A stretch of 49,526 nt of DNA, taken from sequence record PZ296778.1; one strand, given 5' to 3'. Each line of letters starts with the position of its first letter. The first letter of the stretch is position 1. Below are positions 1-49,526 of the stretch, piece by piece. Both the position numbers and the translations under genes were made by a program. Under the pieces are notes generated by a model. The model saw only the letters and a list, made by a program, of their open reading frames with translations, searched no databases and had not been told where the DNA came from. The stretch is from a phage.

Positions 1-528
1 ATGGCTAAAAACGTTGAGCCTGCTGTAAAGGCATTAAATTTCAAAGAGTTATATAATAAAACTTATGGCGATATTGTCACGCTAAACAACCGCCACAAGT
101 ACACGCCGGAACAGGTTTTTGATATGGCGATCCGCTATTTCACTTGGGCCGAAGAGAATCACATCCAGGCGGCTGAAACTGCTTCCTTTCAGGGTTACGT
201 GTACGAGAGCAGAGTTTACAAGCCTCGCGTTTTCACGGTTAACGGATTCAGCTTGTATCTCGGCGTGACTGAGGCTGCCGTAAGCAAATGGCGTAAAGAG
301 CCTGGATTCTGCGATGTGATGGAGTTTGTTGATAAAGTAATTTACGAGCAAAAATTCCAGCTTGCGGCAAATAACATGATTAATGCTGGATTTATCGGTA
401 AAGAGATCGGCGTAGAGAAGCCAGCAACAGTGAGCGTTGAAGCTAGCGCGGCAGCTAATGCAAGCATTGACGCAGTAACTGCCGATGAGGTGAAAGAGGC
501 TGTTATTGATATTCTGGAGCAACTTTAA
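1..528 (+). CDS. terminase small subunit (putative)
   Basis: 175-aa ORF immediately upstream of the large terminase with TAATG stop/start overlap; HTH-like segment (FSLYLGVTEAAVSKWRK); strong RBS contributed by the window end (aaggagga). Confidence 0.55.
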   Translation: MAKNVEPAVKALNFKELYNKTYGDIVTLNNRHKYTPEQVFDMAIRYFTWAEENHIQAAETASFQGYVYESRVYKPRVFTVNGFSLYLGVTEAAVSKWRKEPGFCDVMEFVDKVIYEQKFQLAANNMINAGFIGKEIGVEKPATVSVEASAAANASIDAVTADEVKEAVIDILEQL

Positions 529-24270: not shown

Positions 24271-25006
24271 AGTCTAACGTGGTTGGTTTGTTTACCAGTG
24301 CCGCTACAACCGCTTTTAGCTCGTCAATTTCTTTTCTCATCTCATCGTTTTCCGCTTTCAGTTTCTTAACGTGGTGAATCAGTGGAACAGTTAGGCGGTC
24401 ATACATAACGCCTTCCGCCACCATGCCATTACTTGAAGCAATGGCAGGATCTTCTCCTTCTTGCAGCGGTCGCCAGTGAACGTACTCCGGCGCAATTTCT
24501 CCAACCTCTTCCGCGATTAGCCCGTACCATCCCCAATCTTTACGGTCGCTTTCACAGGTTGACCGATACCACACAGGACGCATTTCAAGCATCAGATCCG
24601 CATATTCATCAATAACCGATTCTACGCTGCGCTTATAACGAGAATAGGAAGTGGAGCGTAAAACTTGCGACACTCCAGCATTTGGATCAAGCCATAAGTT
24701 TGCTGATTGAGAGGTTGTGTTTAGTCTAAACAAATAAAATTTCTCGTTACCAGTCAGGGGGTAAAAACTGCCACCATACCTTCCGCTATCCAACTCGGAC
24801 GATAGATCATTTTGTTTTAGATACAACTTCAACTTATTGTCAACATCAGTAGTTGATGCTTTTCCTGCAACATCCTGTTTTAGTGTCGAAACATCACTTT
24901 TCAGCTTCGTTATATCACCAGGAATAGTAGCAACATCCTGTTTTAGTGTTGAAACGTCATTTTTCAGCTTCGTTATATCACTAGGTATAACAGTGACTGT
25001 AGCCAT
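24269..25006 (-). CDS. tail fibre protein with C-terminal intramolecular chaperone (peptidase S74-like)
   Basis: 245 aa; N-terminal 21-aa tandem repeats (DITKLKNDVSTLKQDVA twice); C-terminal SDRKDWGWYG segment resembling the autoproteolytic chaperone of fibre proteins. Confidence 0.5.
   Translation of the reverse strand: MATVTVIPSDITKLKNDVSTLKQDVATIPGDITKLKSDVSTLKQDVAGKASTTDVDNKLKLYLKQNDLSSELDSGRYGGSFYPLTGNEKFYLFRLNTTSQSANLWLDPNAGVSQVLRSTSYSRYKRSVESVIDEYADLMLEMRPVWYRSTCESDRKDWGWYGLIAEEVGEIAPEYVHWRPLQEGEDPAIASSNGMVAEGVMYDRLTVPLIHHVKKLKAENDEMRKEIDELKAVVAALVNKPTTLD
24867..24985 (-). repeat. 63-bp imperfect tandem repeat in tail fibre gene
   Basis: Two about 63-bp units encoding the 21-aa repeat DITKLK(N/S)DVSTLKQDVA. 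Confidence 0.6.
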
Positions 25007-25342: not shown

Positions 25343-27252
25343 ATACGGAAGTTTCTAACGTGCCCGAAAAGATGACGTTCTCCCGTAGTTGTTTGTCCGC
25401 CAATCCTTATAGTAGCCGTCGATCTTATGTATCTCCATTCCGCTTTTGATTCGCTTGATATTATGGAATTACTTACACAACAAGTATTGTAATCACTCTT
25501 TACTCTCATTCCCATGATCATCTTTTTTAGTTTCGCATTCTCGTAAACCCTTCGGTTTGAGTTACCTATGTCGCAATAAGGGAATCCGTCATTATCGCCT
25601 TCGGCAGACCCGAAAGCAAGAATTATTGCCGCTCCGGTTTGATGGCCGGATGTATCAAAAACACGTGGCGCAGCGTTTGGCGTTATACTCCAGTTTTTAT
25701 GAGCTTCCACAAGCACTGTAAACGGCAAATTGTAAAGGTTGTTTTTTATTGGCAATGTAACCATATCGCTTGCCCTTGTTGTCGGACTTTTATTAGTTAT
25801 AATGAATGATGAAGCGCAAGATCCAACCTCTACTTGAGGAGTTGTTAAATCCATAAAGCTATTTTCATCAAAAACTTCTCCTTGTTTATTAACGACCTGT
25901 ATTACCCCCCTAATGTAAGTTGATTCATCAGTAACTTTGTAAACTATTTCTGCAAAAATCCATTCCCCGTCTATGGTAGCGTTCTTTAGCACTATGTTTT
26001 TTGCGTCAACTCCAGAAGTTGCCACCCCTAAGTTATCGCAATCAATAATAGCAGAAGCAACAGAAGATAAAGGATCTCCCTTGTCAAATCTTGCTGCAAA
26101 TCTTACATTTTTCCCCTTAGCCCTAAAAGATATTGTAACTCCATCACCCTTTACAACTGCAATCTTATTTGCAGTAGGTCCAGCTATAATAGTGTAATAG
26201 CCTACGCCACCTAAATATTCCCCTGGTTTAAATGTTGCATACTTAAACCCCCTTTCATCAGTCTTAGTTTCACCTCTTTCTAATCCTGGATTTGGATTCC
26301 ATGATTCAGGCTTATTTGAATTTACAAAATAGTTTGTTCTCTGCCCTTCAATCAAAAGACCATCCTTTTCAAATCTAGGTTCATCAATAGCAGCATCAGT
26401 AAGCAACCCAGACTTATTAATGTAAGTAGCGGTTGATGCACGTTTAAACTTAACAATATTGTCACCTGGCATCGTTATCTCATCATCACCTATGACAATC
26501 TTTTTGTATGACGGCGAGAATCCGGTGATCATATCCAGGGAATCATTAAATGGTATCCACACGTCAGGTAGAGGCTGCAATAAATCTTTGTAAGGTTCTG
26601 CGGCCTGTTTTGCGTATTCCTCCGCTTGATCTCGCGCACTTTCAGCGCCTGCCTTTGCGGTGTTCGCAGCATCACGCGCAGTTTCAGCGCCTTTTCTTGC
26701 AGTTTCAGCGCCAGTCTTTGCAGTGTTTGCAGCGTCGCGCGCGGATTCAGCGGCAGCCTTTGCAGTGTCAGCACCTTTCTTGCTATTCTCTGCATTTGTT
26801 GCGCTTGTCTTTGCGTTATTCTCGCTAGTTTTAGCTGCCTTCTGGCTTGCTGCGGCTGCGTCAGCATTTGTCTTTACGTCTTCCTGGATCTTCTGTAGCT
26901 TATCCCAATCAAAATCCTTGATGATCTCAATAAATCCAGCAAACTCCGATTCCTTCCCCTGGTAATAACGCAACGTTTCCGCTACGTCTTGCGCAAGACC
27001 GTCAACCGTTAACGAGTCATGAAGCAAGATCAGGTAATTTGTCTTCTGTACTACCGCGCCTCCAGTAGTAATTGCGCGAATGCTTGTATCGCTAATCACT
27101 TCTGTAATCACAGCAGCTTGCAAAGGTTGAGCAAGAAAGAAAATAGTTGCACCTGGGCGAATCAAGGTTAATTGCTCACGCCATTTTGTACCGTAACCAG
27201 TTACATAACCTTGCGCGTCCATAGACGCTTGGCCTTGTCTGTAAATCGCCAT
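25297..27252 (-). CDS. tail fibre protein
   Basis: About 650 aa; start moved to ATG after perfect RBS aggagg (track start is a GTG inside the motif); alanine-rich repeat block (AETARKGAETARDAANTAKAGAESARD) then a variable C-terminal domain. Confidence 0.55.
   Translation of the reverse strand: MAIYRQGQASMDAQGYVTGYGTKWREQLTLIRPGATIFFLAQPLQAAVITEVISDTSIRAITTGGAVVQKTNYLILLHDSLTVDGLAQDVAETLRYYQGKESEFAGFIEIIKDFDWDKLQKIQEDVKTNADAAAASQKAAKTSENNAKTSATNAENSKKGADTAKAAAESARDAANTAKTGAETARKGAETARDAANTAKAGAESARDQAEEYAKQAAEPYKDLLQPLPDVWIPFNDSLDMITGFSPSYKKIVIGDDEITMPGDNIVKFKRASTATYINKSGLLTDAAIDEPRFEKDGLLIEGQRTNYFVNSNKPESWNPNPGLERGETKTDERGFKYATFKPGEYLGGVGYYTIIAGPTANKIAVVKGDGVTISFRAKGKNVRFAARFDKGDPLSSVASAIIDCDNLGVATSGVDAKNIVLKNATIDGEWIFAEIVYKVTDESTYIRGVIQVVNKQGEVFDENSFMDLTTPQVEVGSCASSFIITNKSPTTRASDMVTLPIKNNLYNLPFTVLVEAHKNWSITPNAAPRVFDTSGHQTGAAIILAFGSAEGDNDGFPYCDIGNSNRRVYENAKLKKMIMGMRVKSDYNTCCVSNSIISSESKAEWRYIRSTATIRIGGQTTTGERHLFGHVRNFRIWHKALTDHQLGEIV
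26600..26870 (-). repeat. short-period repeat block encoding an alanine-rich region of the tail fibre
   Basis: Reiterated tttcagcgcc / tttgcagtgt units; encodes repeated AETAR/DAANTAK-type peptide units. Confidence 0.55.
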
Positions 27253-28820: not shown

Positions 28821-28831
28821 CTAGTCACCTC

Positions 28832-28851
28832 ATAGCATTTTTTGTTAAAAC
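28832..28851 (+). promoter_or_regulatory. conserved intergenic motif copy F2 (variant)
   Basis: ATAGCATTTTTTGTTAAAAC in the divergent region upstream of the helicase gene. Confidence 0.55.
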
Positions 28852-35770: not shown

Positions 35771-36166
35771 TCATGTGATATTGAATTTACGGCGCAGTGC
35801 TTCAAGATCTTGTCTATTAGCTTTTGCCTGGAACAATTCATCATCGCCCATCTCCCCTATTCTAGCTATATCCCTGATCCAGTCGTTGCGCATACCATCC
35901 AGGCTATACAATTCGAATCCGAAAGGCCGCTTTGACGATCCTTTGGACCAGTATTTTCCGCATACTCCATCTATATAACCAGCCGTCATCATTCTTGCGC
36001 AAAATTCCTTAGATGCAAGGCTGGCGAACATTCGCGGCGTAAGTCCGGCGGCCCGTGCGAGCCGCTCACATTCTCTATGCTGATAGATAAATTTGGCTAT
36101 GTGCTGCCTGTTAAACCAATCGTATGACTCACACCATTTATACAGATCAAGCAAAAACATAATCAT
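35771..36166 (-). CDS. hypothetical protein
   Basis: 131-aa ORF; start overlaps stop of the upstream P-loop gene (ATGA). Confidence 0.45.
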   Translation of the reverse strand: MIMFLLDLYKWCESYDWFNRQHIAKFIYQHRECERLARAAGLTPRMFASLASKEFCARMMTAGYIDGVCGKYWSKGSSKRPFGFELYSLDGMRNDWIRDIARIGEMGDDELFQAKANRQDLEALRRKFNIT

Positions 36167-37854
36167 CCCAGCAGTATTGGATTGACAAAAATAACACCAT
36201 TAATCACACAAACATAATTTCTTTCTTCCAGCATTGGCAGTAAGTGCCCTTCTATCCTTTTCATTACGCCAGCCTGACCAACGAAAGGTTTTACCTTTCT
36301 CGCTGATTCGTACAGGGCGCGGATATTCAGAATCCCTTTATTAGCCTTGCCGTGCCTCGTGATCAATTCAATCAATTTACCCATTTCAGCATCATCACCA
36401 GCATAACCAGAAGCATTGGCGGCGCTAATGTATGTTTTGCTCAATTCCTGAAACATGATCAACGCCTCTTGCATTGTTTCCACGTCGATCTCTTTCGACT
36501 TCTGCGGGTATCCGGCAGGATTAAACCAGTTACGGATAACATGCAGGACGGAAGCAAGCCTGATCACCTGTTTATCCATTTTACCCAGCGCACCGCGTAA
36601 CATTGTATGAGAATACTTTCCTCCGTCTGCAAGATGCGGTTCCATATCCTGGCGAGCAATGTTGAGCACTCGCATAGCTGAACGGCTTATTTTCAGCGAT
36701 ATATTTGATTCGCTCATGATGTTATGCACCAATTGATAATATTGGGCTTTCAATTCAGAATCCACCGCCTCATAGGTAGAATCACCATTTTCATCAATGA
36801 ATGAGCGACGGCCTAAGAATGATTCCTCGCGGACCAACAAAAAACGCTCACTAACACCGATGCCTCGCGATCCAGCGTCCATGATTCCGCTTATCGTTTC
36901 ATCCTGGGCTATAACGCTCATACATCCAAGCGCGCGAAAACTCATATTATTGTCAGCATTAGCGCGGGCAATTGATACGTGACCATTATCCCACGCCTTA
37001 AGCACTAACTCACTGTTAGTCTTCCTTTCGCTATTTGCATAGGTCAAGCCTAACAGACTGTTAATACTTGTTGCTTCATCAGATATTACGGCAAAGTTAC
37101 CTTGCTTGTTGTTGATTTTCGCCAAGCCTTCTGGAGTTGTATCTGAGACAGGAAAAGTTATATCACACATTTTTTCCAGTTTTTCCTCCAGATCCTCTTT
37201 TTCCTGGTATAGAGATTCCATATCAGCGCCGGATCTTTCGCTTTTCATCTCCTTTGCAAGACCTGCCAGCTTTGCCTGTATTTTCTTTCTTTCCTTGCGG
37301 CGTTGCTCGTTGATCTTCTCAACTTCCGCAATCATCGGAGCAATAGCCATGCTGTTGATCGCAGATTTACCAGTTGACGGCGGCTGGCTTGTAACGACGT
37401 AAAGCGCAGTCGGCTGATCGGTTCCGTGATAGTCAACCGTAAAGCGTCCAAGCATAGCGGCAGAAATGCAGCCGATAAAGTGCATGTAAGCCGATGATTC
37501 AGGGAATTGAACGGATCGCGCAATGCTGCGTGATAACTTGCCGACAACATCAATATCATTACCAAGAGAAATAACGGGGTAGCGATCGTGACCGCTATTC
37601 ACATCCGATTCAGGGAATTGAACGGATCGCGCAATGCTGCGTGATAACTTGCCGACAACATCAATATCATTACCAAGAGAAATAACGGGGTAGCGATCGT
37701 GACCGCTATTCACATCCTTTACGTCGCCCCAAAAGCTGGACGACTGGCGATAGCCGTTAGCCTGAATTGATACGCGAACTGGCGAAAGGTTCTGGCTTTC
37801 AGCCATAGCGATTATTTGTTGTGGAGTTAATTTGTTCGTTTCTAATGAAAACAT
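36163..37854 (-). CDS. P-loop NTPase of unknown function (DUF3987-like?)
   Basis: 563 aa; Walker A-like PSTGKS and Walker B-like FAVISDEAT; N-terminus carries a perfect 37-aa tandem duplication; RBS aaggag. Confidence 0.5.
   Translation of the reverse strand: MFSLETNKLTPQQIIAMAESQNLSPVRVSIQANGYRQSSSFWGDVKDVNSGHDRYPVISLGNDIDVVGKLSRSIARSVQFPESDVNSGHDRYPVISLGNDIDVVGKLSRSIARSVQFPESSAYMHFIGCISAAMLGRFTVDYHGTDQPTALYVVTSQPPSTGKSAINSMAIAPMIAEVEKINEQRRKERKKIQAKLAGLAKEMKSERSGADMESLYQEKEDLEEKLEKMCDITFPVSDTTPEGLAKINNKQGNFAVISDEATSINSLLGLTYANSERKTNSELVLKAWDNGHVSIARANADNNMSFRALGCMSVIAQDETISGIMDAGSRGIGVSERFLLVREESFLGRRSFIDENGDSTYEAVDSELKAQYYQLVHNIMSESNISLKISRSAMRVLNIARQDMEPHLADGGKYSHTMLRGALGKMDKQVIRLASVLHVIRNWFNPAGYPQKSKEIDVETMQEALIMFQELSKTYISAANASGYAGDDAEMGKLIELITRHGKANKGILNIRALYESARKVKPFVGQAGVMKRIEGHLLPMLEERNYVCVINGVIFVNPILLG
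37496..37717 (-). repeat. perfect 111-bp in-frame tandem duplication inside the P-loop gene
   Basis: Two identical adjacent 111-bp units (37496-37606 and 37607-37717) encoding a duplicated 37-aa segment. Confidence 0.85.
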
Positions 37855-37926: not shown

Positions 37927-38144
37927 TTGATCCGCTCTATTGCAACCAGAAGTCGATCAGGCTGGCGGTCGCTGTAGCATTCTCCTGTAATCCCATCCTT
38001 AAACGTAAAGTAAAGCGCCTTATGATATGAAAAACCAATCAGCCAACCTACCGCCGTTTTTTTGATGGGCCTGACTATATCGCCAGGCTTGAAAGTCTTT
38101 GTGGTAGAATGCGTTACTTTGTAACGGTTTTCACTGTTTATCAC
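37923..38144 (-). CDS. hypothetical protein
   Basis: 73-aa ORF whose stop TAG lies within motif copy R5. Confidence 0.4.
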   Translation of the reverse strand: MINSENRYKVTHSTTKTFKPGDIVRPIKKTAVGWLIGFSYHKALYFTFKDGITGECYSDRQPDRLLVAIERIK

Positions 38145-38527
38145 AGATATTTGCCCTCAAACAGATAACAGCCGCCAGCAGAGAATCCGACCTCTTCACG
38201 GTACAGGTTCCAGCGGTCGCCGCACTCATCAAAAACATAACCCGCAACGCTTCCAAGCGGTCGCCCTTTCTCGATCTGGTATCGCTTGCCCTGCTTAAAG
38301 TGCTTTTTGCACGGCATGTTATGATCTACAAACGTGCAAAGAACGGTCTTTGTGTTAATGGCGCGGTAATCATCTCGGTTTGCTGGAAGCCAACGGCTAC
38401 CCTTAACAAGCGTCTTAACCTGGAACTCTTCCACCTCGATCACATCATTACTTCCTGCAATCTTCTGATAAACCGTTTTAAAACGGCCTTTCATCAATAC
38501 GTTGGTTTCATTACAGATAACATTCAT
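38141..38527 (-). CDS. hypothetical protein
   Basis: 128-aa ORF; overlapping start/stop with the downstream gene. Confidence 0.45.
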   Translation of the reverse strand: MNVICNETNVLMKGRFKTVYQKIAGSNDVIEVEEFQVKTLVKGSRWLPANRDDYRAINTKTVLCTFVDHNMPCKKHFKQGKRYQIEKGRPLGSVAGYVFDECGDRWNLYREEVGFSAGGCYLFEGKYL

Positions 38528-42422: not shown

Positions 42423-43316
42423 ATGTTAAAACTTGCTGACATTAAATTCCCGATCACCTTCGAATCTCGCGGCATTGGTCATTACATTTTTACCGATGAA
42501 AAAACATGCCATAAGGTTGATATGAATAGCGACAAACTAAGCCCATCAGACATGGAGATTGAACACTTTATTGATGCGCACAATACGCAGTACAACGCAC
42601 TTAAAGACTATGGCTATGCAATGCCAGGATATACCAGCTTCCACTACAAGCCATATAAAGGCCAGGTGTTGCCAGTGCGCTCACCGGAACGCGCAGAGAT
42701 TCCGATGGTCGAGATGAAAACATGCGACTATAAAAAGCTGTGGTGCTTAAGTGTTGACAATATCAAGTATCCGATCACGTTCTACACGGTTGGTAATTCA
42801 ACGATTCGATTCACATCGCGCGACAATGGCGTTTATAGCGATGGTACGAAATCAGAGTTGAAAGTTGATTTCTTTGTCAACGGTCACAATAGATACAATC
42901 CGCACAACGAAAAAGATAAAGTGTATTACGTGGAAGATATTACAAAACACTTATTTGGAGAAACTCCATTCGGCGGCGGTAAGACGTCAATTCAAAAAAT
43001 CATTGGCGATGAGATCCACAAAGCGGCTGCCGAAATGAAAGCGCCTGGAGGCTGGCGTATTGACAAGAGCGCCTTTGCCTATCAAGAAATCGTAACGCAG
43101 GGCGCAATTGAAGATATGCCAGTTGCAGCCACGCTAAAAGGAGTCCGGCTTGATGACGGCACCTGGTATGAAGTAACGGCTACGCCAAAGACGATCGAGA
43201 TTCATGATGACGTTGTTATCCTTCTGCTTCACTACGGCGGCTATAAAAACCGGACGATTGCAGGTGAGATCAGCATTAAGCGCGGAACGATGGTTAAGTG
43301 GAAGGTCAAAGTGTAA
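42423..43316 (+). CDS. hypothetical protein with internal domain duplication
   Basis: 297 aa; two related segments (LADIKFPITFESRGIGHYIFTD / VDNIKYPITFYTVGNSTIRFTS); RBS ggaga. Confidence 0.5.
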   Translation: MLKLADIKFPITFESRGIGHYIFTDEKTCHKVDMNSDKLSPSDMEIEHFIDAHNTQYNALKDYGYAMPGYTSFHYKPYKGQVLPVRSPERAEIPMVEMKTCDYKKLWCLSVDNIKYPITFYTVGNSTIRFTSRDNGVYSDGTKSELKVDFFVNGHNRYNPHNEKDKVYYVEDITKHLFGETPFGGGKTSIQKIIGDEIHKAAAEMKAPGGWRIDKSAFAYQEIVTQGAIEDMPVAATLKGVRLDDGTWYEVTATPKTIEIHDDVVILLLHYGGYKNRTIAGEISIKRGTMVKWKVKV

Positions 43317-43853: not shown

Positions 43854-44061
43854 GCGCGTCAAGCACAGGTTTACTGATAACCACGGCGACGCGATTGATG
43901 TATACAAGTTTGGCGATCGAGTTTTTATTGATGGCACGTTTGAAGGTGGGCGTAGGCCGGATTTTAGGTCGATACTTACCGTTGACCAAGTGCGCAAGCT
44001 GGCAGATAAGTTAAATGATCTGGCAGATGAAATAGAATACAAGCAAATCCATTTTAATTGA
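43840..44061 (+). CDS. hypothetical protein
   Basis: 73-aa ORF overlapping the upstream stop. Confidence 0.4.
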   Translation: MKTNKRVKHRFTDNHGDAIDVYKFGDRVFIDGTFEGGRRPDFRSILTVDQVRKLADKLNDLADEIEYKQIHFN

Positions 44062-44072
44062 TAGGTTTTATA

Positions 44073-44612
44073 ATGAAAAAATACACTTTCGAACTATGGG
44101 GCAAGAAGTACGAATTAATCACCAGCAAGCCGATTGTTATCGTTGACCTGGACGGCACACTATCGGACGGATCGCATCGTTTGCATTTGCTGCCAACTGA
44201 AAACTTGCACCTTACGGAATCGTGGAGCGAATTTAACAGGGCCGCCGCCGGAGATTCACCGATTAAAAGCACGATCGCGGTTATTAACGGTTTGTGGGTG
44301 TCGGGATTTGCCATCGTCATCTTGACCGGACGCAGCGACGAGGTGCGCTATGAAACCTGCAAATGGTTGAATGAGAGCGGCGTGAAGTTTGACGAAATCA
44401 TCATGCGCCGCCAGGAGGACAACCGAAAGGATACGGTTATTAAAGAAGAAGCCTTGCGCGCTATTGGCCTGGAAAATATTGTTTGCGCCTTTGACGATTC
44501 GCCGAACGTTGTTAAGCACTTCCGCAGCCTGGGAATCACAACCTATCAGGTCACGGAATACGACAAGCCGCACGCTCACCTGCAATCTCACGGCGTGGAG
44601 TGTTTAAAATGA
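44073..44612 (+). CDS. HAD-superfamily phosphatase (polynucleotide 3'-phosphatase / nucleotidase-like)
   Basis: HAD motif I VDLDGTL, motif II VILTGR, motif IV AFDDSPNVV; start at MKKYTF (track start is TTG). Confidence 0.55.
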   Translation: MKKYTFELWGKKYELITSKPIVIVDLDGTLSDGSHRLHLLPTENLHLTESWSEFNRAAAGDSPIKSTIAVINGLWVSGFAIVILTGRSDEVRYETCKWLNESGVKFDEIIMRRQEDNRKDTVIKEEALRAIGLENIVCAFDDSPNVVKHFRSLGITTYQVTEYDKPHAHLQSHGVECLK

Positions 44613-49476: not shown

Positions 49477-49526
49477 ATTGCCCGTTGTCTGGTATAATCA
49501 GGCATCTAACCAAAGGAGGATTAACA

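What the first reader, a model, noticed from the sequence alone, without database searches (positions are those of the whole stretch)
37496..37717. Perfect 111-bp in-frame tandem duplication inside the 563-aa P-loop gene
Two adjacent 111-bp units are identical base for base, duplicating the 37-aa segment DVNSGHDRYPVISLGNDIDVVGKLSRSIARSVQFPES in the N-terminal region. Zero divergence points to a very recent duplication, a possibly length-variable region, or an assembly artefact.
Basis: seen in the sequence. Interest (0 to 1): 0.55.

Follow-up and report, generated by a model that had tools for sequence, protein, structure and literature searches.

The report
Private perfect duplication, probably assembly scar
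The two identical 111-bp copies inside this phage's replicative helicase gene are really in the sequence, but no relative has them and they most likely arose when a circular assembly was re-opened without trimming its overlapping ends, so the finding is probably ordinary.

Summary
Window 37496-37606 and 37607-37717 are identical base for base: exactly 2.0 copies, in frame. They duplicate residues 47-83 of a minus-strand gene (36163-37854, 563 aa).

The gene is the DUF3987, MCM-like replicative helicase of a Warwickvirus (Drexlerviridae, T1-like).

The duplication is private to this genome:
- All 40 listed close phage records span 1581 bp, which is 1692 minus 111.
- All full-length homologs are 510-532 aa.
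- Eight independent contigs encode 526 aa.
- The junction is absent from five collections.
- With one copy removed, the protein is 100% identical to the commonest allele (phage tonn).

So this is not a length-variable region.

The window is a complete circularly permuted genome re-opened exactly at the terS ATG. The breakpoints have no microhomology. These features fit a known finishing artefact, in which a circular contig with redundant ends is rotated without trimming.

Related records show the same class of error. AV105 keeps a 14-nt end overlap. Two terS-rotated records carry private perfect tandem duplications: EC195 (14 bp) and EC147 (16 bp, which breaks a conserved gene).

A genuine, very recent duplication is not excluded. 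It is in frame, and the model loops one copy out at an already flexible loop. Only reads or PCR can decide.

Estimated odds: artefact about 0.62, real duplication about 0.3. Interest is low.

The parts
36163..37854 (-). Gene for the DUF3987 / MCM-like (SF6) replicative helicase. It is 563 aa as written and 526 aa in every relative.
   Evidence: ORF. Pfam PF13148, 152.7 bits against a cutoff of 27. PHROG 2373 'DNA helicase'. Foldseek top 50 hits are all MCM chains. With one copy removed the protein is 100% identical to P0121, the tonn allele.
37496..37606 (-). Repeat copy at the lower coordinates. It encodes protein residues 84-120, the copy that the structure model places in the native position.
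   Evidence: The sequence is identical to the single copy in tonn, AV105 and SECphi27.
37607..37717 (-). Repeat copy at the higher coordinates. It encodes residues 47-83, which the model shows as a low-confidence looped-out segment.
   Evidence: Residues 50-90 have pLDDT below 50 in the duplicated model.
37593..37620 (+). Novel junction 28-mer CGCTATTCACATCC|GATTCAGGGAATTG, with the breakpoint between 37606 and 37607. There is no microhomology. The Ser83 codon spans the junction, and by my reading of the sequence it is TCG here and TCA in the other copy.
   Evidence: Sequence. The junction is absent from GenBank phages, IMG/VR, JGI metagenomes, GTDB genomes, complete E. coli genomes and 23 fetched loci.
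37363..37386 (-). Walker A / P-loop, QPPSTGKS (residues 157-164). It lies downstream of the duplication and is unaffected by it.
   Evidence: Invariant columns Q157, P158, P159, S160, G162, K163, S164.
37075..37089 (-). Walker B, VISDE (residues 256-260).
   Evidence: Invariant S258 and E260, nearly invariant V256 and I257.
37732..37824 (-). N-terminal three-helix region (residues 11-41), upstream of the duplicated linker.
   Evidence: Helices H11-21, H25-33 and H36-41 in both models.
1..528 (+). terS gene. The record opens exactly at its ATG, and window base 49526 is adjacent to base 1 in relatives. The window is therefore a complete permuted genome that was re-opened after assembly.
   Evidence: Head and tail map to adjacent positions in tunzivis (17695/17696), JLBYU19 (22539/22540) and tonnikala (24192/24193). 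The window starts with ATGGCT and has no terminal repeat. EC125, EC167 and EC195 open at the same base.

Best explanation
The second copy is most likely a finishing artefact and is not present in the phage.

T1-like phages package by the headful mechanism, so their reads assemble into a circle. Assemblers write that circle as a linear contig whose two ends repeat the same stretch (R-A-R). If the contig is then cut at a conventional start, here the terS ATG, and the pieces are pasted together without removing one R, the two Rs end up side by side. That gives a perfect tandem duplication with exactly two copies and arbitrary breakpoints. The original contig would have started at 37607 and ended at 37606.

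The true gene would then be the ordinary 526-aa MCM-like helicase. That 111 is divisible by three would be a coincidence.

Shown: the record is a re-opened circle; the duplication is perfect, has exactly two copies, has no microhomology and is private to this genome; and this class of error exists in the literature and in related records.

Inferred: the contig ends lay at this position.
For: 1. The window is a complete circular permutation opened at the terS ATG. Rotation after assembly is therefore certain.
2. The repeat has exactly 2.0 copies at 100% identity and no microhomology. The left flank GCCGAT does not match the unit end ACATCC, and the right flank TTTACG does not match the unit start GATTCA.
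3. It is private to this genome. All 40 listed phage records span 1581 bp. All full-length homologs among the 120 listed (219 hits) are 510-532 aa. The exact 563-aa product is on no contig in the assembly collection. Eight independent contigs encode 526 aa. The junction is absent everywhere searched.
4. With one copy removed, the protein is 100% identical to the commonest allele, P0121. No other change accompanies the duplication.
5. [quoted passage not shown]
6. The class is visible in this genus.
   - AV105, the closest relative at this locus, begins and ends with the same 14 nt. The window has that sequence once, running through the join.
   - EC195, opened at the terS ATG like the window, has a private perfect 14-bp tandem duplication together with loss of the adjacent 14 nt.
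   - EC147, also opened at terS, has a private perfect 16-bp tandem duplication. It splits a gene that is intact in JakobBernoulli and in the window.
7. The duplicated segment contains the family's conserved SVQFP motif, with F and P invariant. It is not a tolerant, variable stretch.
Against: - No reads are available and the source record and assembler could not be identified, so the key step (contig ends at 37606/37607) is inferred.
- 111 is not a default k of the commonest assemblers. My recollection that some pipelines use k = 111 for 150-bp reads is untested.
- The scars found in related records are 14-16 bp, not 111 bp. It is not shown that the window comes from the same laboratory.
- The duplication is in frame, which for an artefact is a one-in-three coincidence.
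- The rest of the assembly looks clean: long ORFs are intact compared with EC125.
- EC125 and EC167, opened the same way, show no scar.
- The structure model suggests the extra copy could be tolerated.
Confidence: 0.62

Rival explanations
1. The duplication is real and very recent. An in-frame tandem duplication of 111 bp arose in this phage lineage and was fixed in the sequenced stock, by a plaque-purification bottleneck or by selection. It would insert 37 residues between the small N-terminal helical region and the AAA+ core of the MCM-like replicative helicase. One copy of the segment would occupy the native position and the other would loop out.
For: - The reading frame is preserved and the 563-aa ORF is intact.
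- In the wild-type model the start of the segment is already a poorly ordered loop (residues 51-53 have pLDDT below 50, and the block 51-60 averages 67).
- In the duplicated model the fold is kept (pTM 0.82). The second copy is modelled as in the wild type and residues 50-90 are disordered.
- The rest of the genome shows no sign of poor finishing.
- Reads of 250 nt could resolve a 222-bp repeat (my inference).
- Replication proteins are common sites of escape mutations against defence systems (bioRxiv 10.1101/2022.08.27.505566).
Against: - It is private to this genome among all relatives and collections searched.
- There is no microhomology at the breakpoints. From general knowledge, slippage and illegitimate recombination in E. 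coli and its phages usually leave a few bases of microhomology.
- No accompanying substitution is present.
- The segment carries an invariant motif.
- The phage encodes its own exonuclease, ERF-type recombinase and SSB. These should collapse a perfect 111-bp direct repeat quickly unless it is under selection (inference).
- That paper names no defence system targeting this helicase in SECphi27.
- The model's tolerance partly reflects how the homologs were aligned to the second copy.
Confidence: 0.3
2. The segment is a naturally length-variable (copy-number-variable) region of this helicase family, and this genome simply has two units.
For: Only the presence of two units here.
Against: - All full-length homologs down to about 36% identity are 510-532 aa.
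- The alignment shows only 1-2 residue indels in this region and a conserved YPVISLGND...SVQFP block.
- Every close genome has one copy.
Confidence: 0.02
3. It is another kind of technical artefact. For example, a polishing or local-reassembly tool, or a manual join of two contigs, inserted a spurious copy, without the site being the original ends of a circular contig.
For: The same signature applies (perfect, private, no microhomology). EC195 shows a net-zero 14-nt swap that looks like an editing or joining scar and not a simple overlap.
Against: There is nothing specific for it, and sequence alone cannot separate it from the main explanation.
Confidence: 0.06

Closest known systems
[quoted passage not shown]
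   Same: Two perfect copies of an arbitrary stretch, with no biological breakpoint signature, in a genome that assembles as a circle. They become adjacent if the contig is rotated without trimming.
   Different: The length here is 111 bp, not 127, and the copies are internal and not at the record ends. The assembler is unknown, so the match between length and k could not be tested.
Scars in related GenBank records: AV105 (14-nt identical ends), EC195 (private 14-bp tandem duplication), EC147 (private 16-bp tandem duplication that splits a conserved gene)
   Same: They are Drexlerviridae (AV105 and EC195 are Warwickvirus, EC147 is Hanrivervirus). EC195 and EC147 are opened at the terS ATG exactly like the window. 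The duplications are perfect, have two copies and are absent from all relatives.
   Different: They are much shorter (14-16 bp) and not in frame. They come from a CLC-based workflow (PMC9583813, PMC10844046). It is not known whether the window shares that origin.
DUF3987 / SF6, MCM-related replicative helicases of phages and mobile elements (Kazlauskas et al. 2016, PMC4889955; AgaPH, PMC11724360)
   Same: Pfam DUF3987 match, Walker A and B motifs, MCM-like fold by Foldseek, and a separately encoded DnaG-type primase (Zn_Ribbon_Prim) nearby. This is the gene that carries the duplication.
   Different: This concerns the gene, not the duplication. No member of the family examined here has a duplicated N-terminal linker. 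AgaPH has an N-terminal PriCT domain, which this protein lacks.
Genuine tandem duplications in phage genomes and engineered in-frame sequence duplications in T4 lysozyme (from my own knowledge, not checked here)
   Same: In-frame duplications can be tolerated when one copy loops out of the fold. Perfect repeats are recombinationally unstable.
   Different: Documented natural cases usually show microhomology at the breakpoints or are recovered under selection. Neither is shown here.

Membership tests
Rotated, untrimmed circular-contig overlap (assembly or finishing artefact) | Two copies identical base for base, exactly two, adjacent | tested here: met
   TRF 2.0 copies at 100%. The run of identity is exactly 111.
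Rotated, untrimmed circular-contig overlap (assembly or finishing artefact) | The record is a circular permutation that was re-opened at a chosen start after assembly | tested here: met
   The window's end and start are adjacent in tunzivis, JLBYU19 and tonnikala, and base 1 is the terS ATG.
Rotated, untrimmed circular-contig overlap (assembly or finishing artefact) | Arbitrary breakpoints without microhomology | tested here: met
   Zero shared bases on either side. By chance this is expected in about 56% of arbitrary breakpoints, so it is compatible but not specific.
Rotated, untrimmed circular-contig overlap (assembly or finishing artefact) | Absent from relatives and from independent assemblies | tested here: met
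   Caveat: no independent assembly of this same phage was found; the best locus is 99.3% identical.
Rotated, untrimmed circular-contig overlap (assembly or finishing artefact) | Repeat length equals the assembler's k or end overlap | not testable with these tools
   The source record and assembly method were not identified. 111 is odd, as a de Bruijn k must be, but that is weak evidence.
Rotated, untrimmed circular-contig overlap (assembly or finishing artefact) | Reads do not support the junction, and depth over each copy is half normal | not testable with these tools
   No reads are available.
Genuine tandem duplication (slippage or illegitimate recombination) | Short direct repeat (microhomology) at the breakpoints | tested here: not met
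   0 nt. A 10-nt inverted repeat has one arm starting at the right breakpoint, but a randomly placed unit would show this about 7% of the time.
Genuine tandem duplication (slippage or illegitimate recombination) | Product compatible with function: frame kept and location structurally tolerant | tested here: inconclusive
   The frame is kept. The model keeps the fold with one copy disordered. However, the segment carries an invariant motif, and the model is guided by how the homologs were aligned.
Genuine tandem duplication (slippage or illegitimate recombination) | Junction present in the physical DNA (reads, PCR) | not testable with these tools
   No reads or material are available.
Length-variable repeat region | Copy number varies among relatives | tested here: not met
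   Full-length homologs are 510-532 aa. Every close genome has one copy.
DUF3987 / SF6 MCM-like replicative helicase (the host gene) | Pfam PF13148 match above the gathering score | tested here: met
   152.7 bits against a cutoff of 27, residues 118-467.
DUF3987 / SF6 MCM-like replicative helicase (the host gene) | [quoted passage not shown] | tested here: met
   Invariant G162, K163, S164 and S258, E260.
DUF3987 / SF6 MCM-like replicative helicase (the host gene) | MCM-like AAA+ fold | tested here: met
   The wild-type model has pLDDT 87.5. The Foldseek top 50 PDB hits are all MCM chains, with E down to 8e-7 and modest TM scores of 0.33-0.38.
DUF3987 / SF6 MCM-like replicative helicase (the host gene) | C-terminal winged helix domain | tested here: inconclusive
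   The model shows a helix/strand pattern at residues 450-525 of the wild type that is compatible with one. No domain-level comparison was made.
DUF3987 / SF6 MCM-like replicative helicase (the host gene) | ATP-dependent DNA unwinding | not testable with these tools
   Shown biochemically only for a distant member, AgaPH (PMC11724360).

The most novel reading that the evidence does not exclude
The duplication is physically present in the phage. It would be a very recent in-frame 37-residue duplication of the conserved linker (including the invariant SVQFP motif) between the N-terminal helical region and the AAA+ core of an MCM-like replicative helicase. It would be kept in the stock despite the phage's own recombination system because it is selected, for instance for growth on a particular E. 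coli isolate or for escape from a defence system that senses the replication machinery.
Probability: 0.3. Interest if true: 0.35.

Novelty: not a real feature. Interest (0 to 1): 0.12.

Why it matters
If it is an artefact, the practical points are these. The record overstates the genome by 111 bp (49,415 bp would be correct). It reports a 563-aa helicase that does not exist. It also adds to evidence that re-opening permuted phage assemblies without trimming leaves perfect internal duplications in public records. EC195, EC147 and the ends of AV105 show the same problem.

If it is real, it would be a modest curiosity: a tolerated 37-residue insertion next to the ATPase core of a poorly studied phage helicase family. 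It would give a handle on which part of the N-terminal linker is dispensable.

Tried and rejected
- **Independent assembly of the same phage.** The exact 563-aa product is not on record. Probes with neighbouring window proteins and with P0001 found only relatives up to 99.3% identical. No read-level or independent test was therefore possible.
- **Identifying the source record and assembler.** It is not one of the 16 EC phages, not vB_EcoS-149_6D, which is 51,036 bp, and not in the AV collection text.
- **Second citation for the rotation artefact.** Shen & Millard is not held and a phrase search returned nothing. My recollection that some pipelines use k = 111 stays untested.
- **Defence-escape idea.** The SECphi27 escape paper names a 128-aa protein for Mokosh, and names SSB, polymerase and primase-helicase for other systems and phages. 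It does not name this DUF3987 helicase.
- **Inverted repeat at the right breakpoint as a slippage promoter.** This is not significant; it would occur about 7% of the time under random placement.
- **Solved homologs by sequence.** None were found, and there was no NCBIfam hit.
- **Positive control in IMG/VR.** The single-copy boundary found only one contig. The absence of the junction there carries little weight, and the GenBank phage set and the protein collection are the informative denominators.
- **EC125 and EC167.** Both are opened the same way and show no scar, so the error is not universal in that workflow.

Full report
**Observation**

- Tandem Repeats Finder reports 37496-37717, period 111, 2.0 copies, 100% matches. 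The raw sequence shows it directly.
- A scan for s[i]==s[i+111] gives a run of exactly 111 positions. There are exactly two copies, and identity does not extend by a single base on either side.
- It is the only perfect tandem duplication with a period of 10 bp or more in the window.
- It lies in the minus-strand ORF 36163-37854 (563 aa).
- The 37-residue peptide DVNSGHDRYPVISLGNDIDVVGKLSRSIARSVQFPES occurs at residues 47-83 and 84-120.

**What the gene is**

- The protein matches Pfam DUF3987 (152.7 bits against a cutoff of 27, residues 118-467) and PHROG 2373 'DNA helicase'.
- An AlphaFold model of the single-copy form is confident (pLDDT 87.5, pTM 0.85).
- Its top 50 Foldseek matches in the PDB are all MCM subunits. 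This agrees with the published assignment of DUF3987 to MCM-related SF6 replicative helicases (PMC4889955) and with the helicase activity shown for a distant member (PMC11724360).
- The Walker A (QPPSTGKS, 157-164) and Walker B (VISDE, 256-260) motifs are conserved.
- The duplicated segment lies between a small N-terminal helical region (residues 11-41) and the ATPase core. In the wild type it comprises a poorly ordered loop, one helix (66-77) and the motif SVQFP, whose F and P are invariant across the family.

**What the genome is**

- The window is a Warwickvirus (Drexlerviridae, Tempevirinae; T1-like). It is about 98-99% identical to tonn, Tuinin, AV105, EC125 and others.
- Its last base and first base are adjacent in tunzivis (17695/17696), JLBYU19 (22539/22540) and tonnikala (24192/24193).
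- Base 1 is the ATG of terS.
- The window is therefore a complete, circularly permuted genome that someone re-opened at terS after assembly.

**The duplication is private to this genome**

- All 40 listed close phage records span 1581 bp, which is 1692 minus 111.
- tonn, AV105 and SECphi27 carry one copy, identical to the unit.
- A 44-mer across the junction has no match in 50,697 phage records.
- The junction 28-mer is absent from IMG/VR, JGI metagenomes, GTDB genomes and complete E. coli genomes and from the 23 loci fetched by that point.
- A positive control with the single-copy boundary found only one IMG/VR contig, so that particular absence is weak.
- In the protein collection, 219 homologs were found. 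Among the 120 listed, the full-length ones are 510-532 aa.
- The exact 563-aa product is on no contig.
- Eight independent contigs that carry the window's exact 665-aa neighbouring helicase all encode a 526-aa DUF3987 protein.
- With one copy removed, the window's protein is 100% identical to P0121, the commonest Warwickvirus allele, seen on 127 contigs.
- The 'length-variable region' reading is therefore rejected. What remains is either a very recent event or an artefact.

**Why an artefact is favoured**

- The signature is two perfect adjacent copies, arbitrary breakpoints with no microhomology, a genome that assembles as a circle, and a record that was demonstrably rotated.
- This is what results when a contig with redundant ends (R-A-R) is cut elsewhere and rejoined without trimming (A2-R-R-A1).
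- Such end overlaps are documented, and authors remove them explicitly (PMC5923482).
- I looked for the same error in related records and found it.
  - AV105, the closest relative at this locus, begins and ends with the same 14 nt. The window has that sequence once, running through the join.
  - EC195, opened at the terS ATG like the window, has a private perfect 14-bp tandem duplication combined with loss of the neighbouring 14 nt. This net-zero swap is hard to explain biologically.
  - EC147, also opened at terS, has a private perfect 16-bp tandem duplication. It splits a gene that is intact in JakobBernoulli, in the window and, to judge by matched length, in most of the other listed relatives.
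- These records come from a CLC-based workflow (PMC9583813; PMC10844046).
- The phage also encodes an exonuclease, an ERF-type recombinase and an SSB. I infer that these would collapse a real perfect 111-bp repeat unless it were selected.

**Why a real duplication is not excluded**

- The frame is preserved.
- The rest of the assembly is clean, with long ORFs intact compared with EC125.
- The duplicated model keeps the fold (pTM 0.82). The second copy is in the native position and residues 50-90 are disordered, at a point where the wild-type loop is already flexible. That model is guided by how the homologs align, so it shows plausibility and not function.
- 111 is not a default k of the most common assemblers.
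- The scars in related records are much shorter.
- I could not show that the window comes from the same laboratory, and I could not identify its source.
- EC125 and EC167 have no scar.
- Once all viable outcomes are counted, being in frame within a gene is about equally likely under both hypotheses (my estimate), so it does not discriminate.

**Other checks**

- A 10-nt inverted repeat has one arm starting at the right breakpoint. A randomly placed unit would show this about 7% of the time.
- The paper on SECphi27 escape mutants does not implicate this helicase.
- No solved homolog is detectable by sequence.

**Verdict**

- Estimated probabilities: artefact of re-opening a circular assembly about 0.62, another technical artefact about 0.06, genuine recent duplication about 0.30, length-variable region about 0.02.
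- Reads, the assembly log or a 311 versus 200 bp PCR would settle it at once.
- Interest is low either way.

Noticed in passing
L026 (AV105, OR352936.1) 1-14 and 49709-49722; window about 28825-28850: The AV105 GenBank record begins and ends with the same 14 nt (GCATTTTTTGTTAA). The window has that sequence once, running through the join. The record therefore keeps an untrimmed circular-assembly overlap and is 14 bp too long. AV105 also lacks 14 nt (ATCTAGTCACCTCA) just before that point, relative to the window.
   Followed up: yes
L006 (EC195, ON185588.1) 43051-43078: EC195 has a private perfect 14-bp tandem duplication (ATAGCACTTTTTGT x2) and lacks the adjacent 14 nt (TATGACCGTCGAGA). EC125, orkinos, AV105 and the window all have those 14 nt. 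The net-zero swap looks like a joining or editing scar.
   Followed up: yes
L028 (EC147, ON185589.1) 42579-42611: EC147 has a private perfect 16-bp tandem duplication (GACTACAAAAAGCTGT x2). It frameshifts a conserved gene into two annotated ORFs. JakobBernoulli (bas07_0071) and the window (42423-43316, 297 aa) have one copy and an intact gene.
   Followed up: yes
window 38141-38527 (-): This 128-aa ORF, two genes upstream of the helicase, is 127/128 identical to SECphi27 gp13 (HOS92_gp13). A '128aa protein of unknown function' of SECphi27 is reported as the determinant of escape from Mokosh type I (bioRxiv 10.1101/2022.08.27.505566). I did not verify that gp13 is that protein.
   Followed up: partly
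window 37395-37404 and 37717-37726: A perfect 10-nt inverted repeat (CGACGTAAAG / CTTTACGTCG) has one arm starting exactly at the right-hand breakpoint of the duplication. About 7% of randomly placed 111-bp units would touch an arm end, so it is probably a coincidence.
   Followed up: yes
window 24867-24989 and 26636-26772: Imperfect 63-bp tandem repeats (91% and 78% matches) lie in the region where relatives annotate tail-fibre genes. A related perfect 21-bp repeat occurs in JLBYU16 and Phunderstruck. These look like ordinary repeats in fibre proteins.
   Followed up: no
window 44058-44612 (+): The polynucleotide kinase/phosphatase ORF is 184 aa here but 241 aa in the stop-to-stop frame of EC125. 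The short form (179 aa) is also annotated in orkinos, AV105 and tinuso, so it is a natural variant and not an error.
   Followed up: partly
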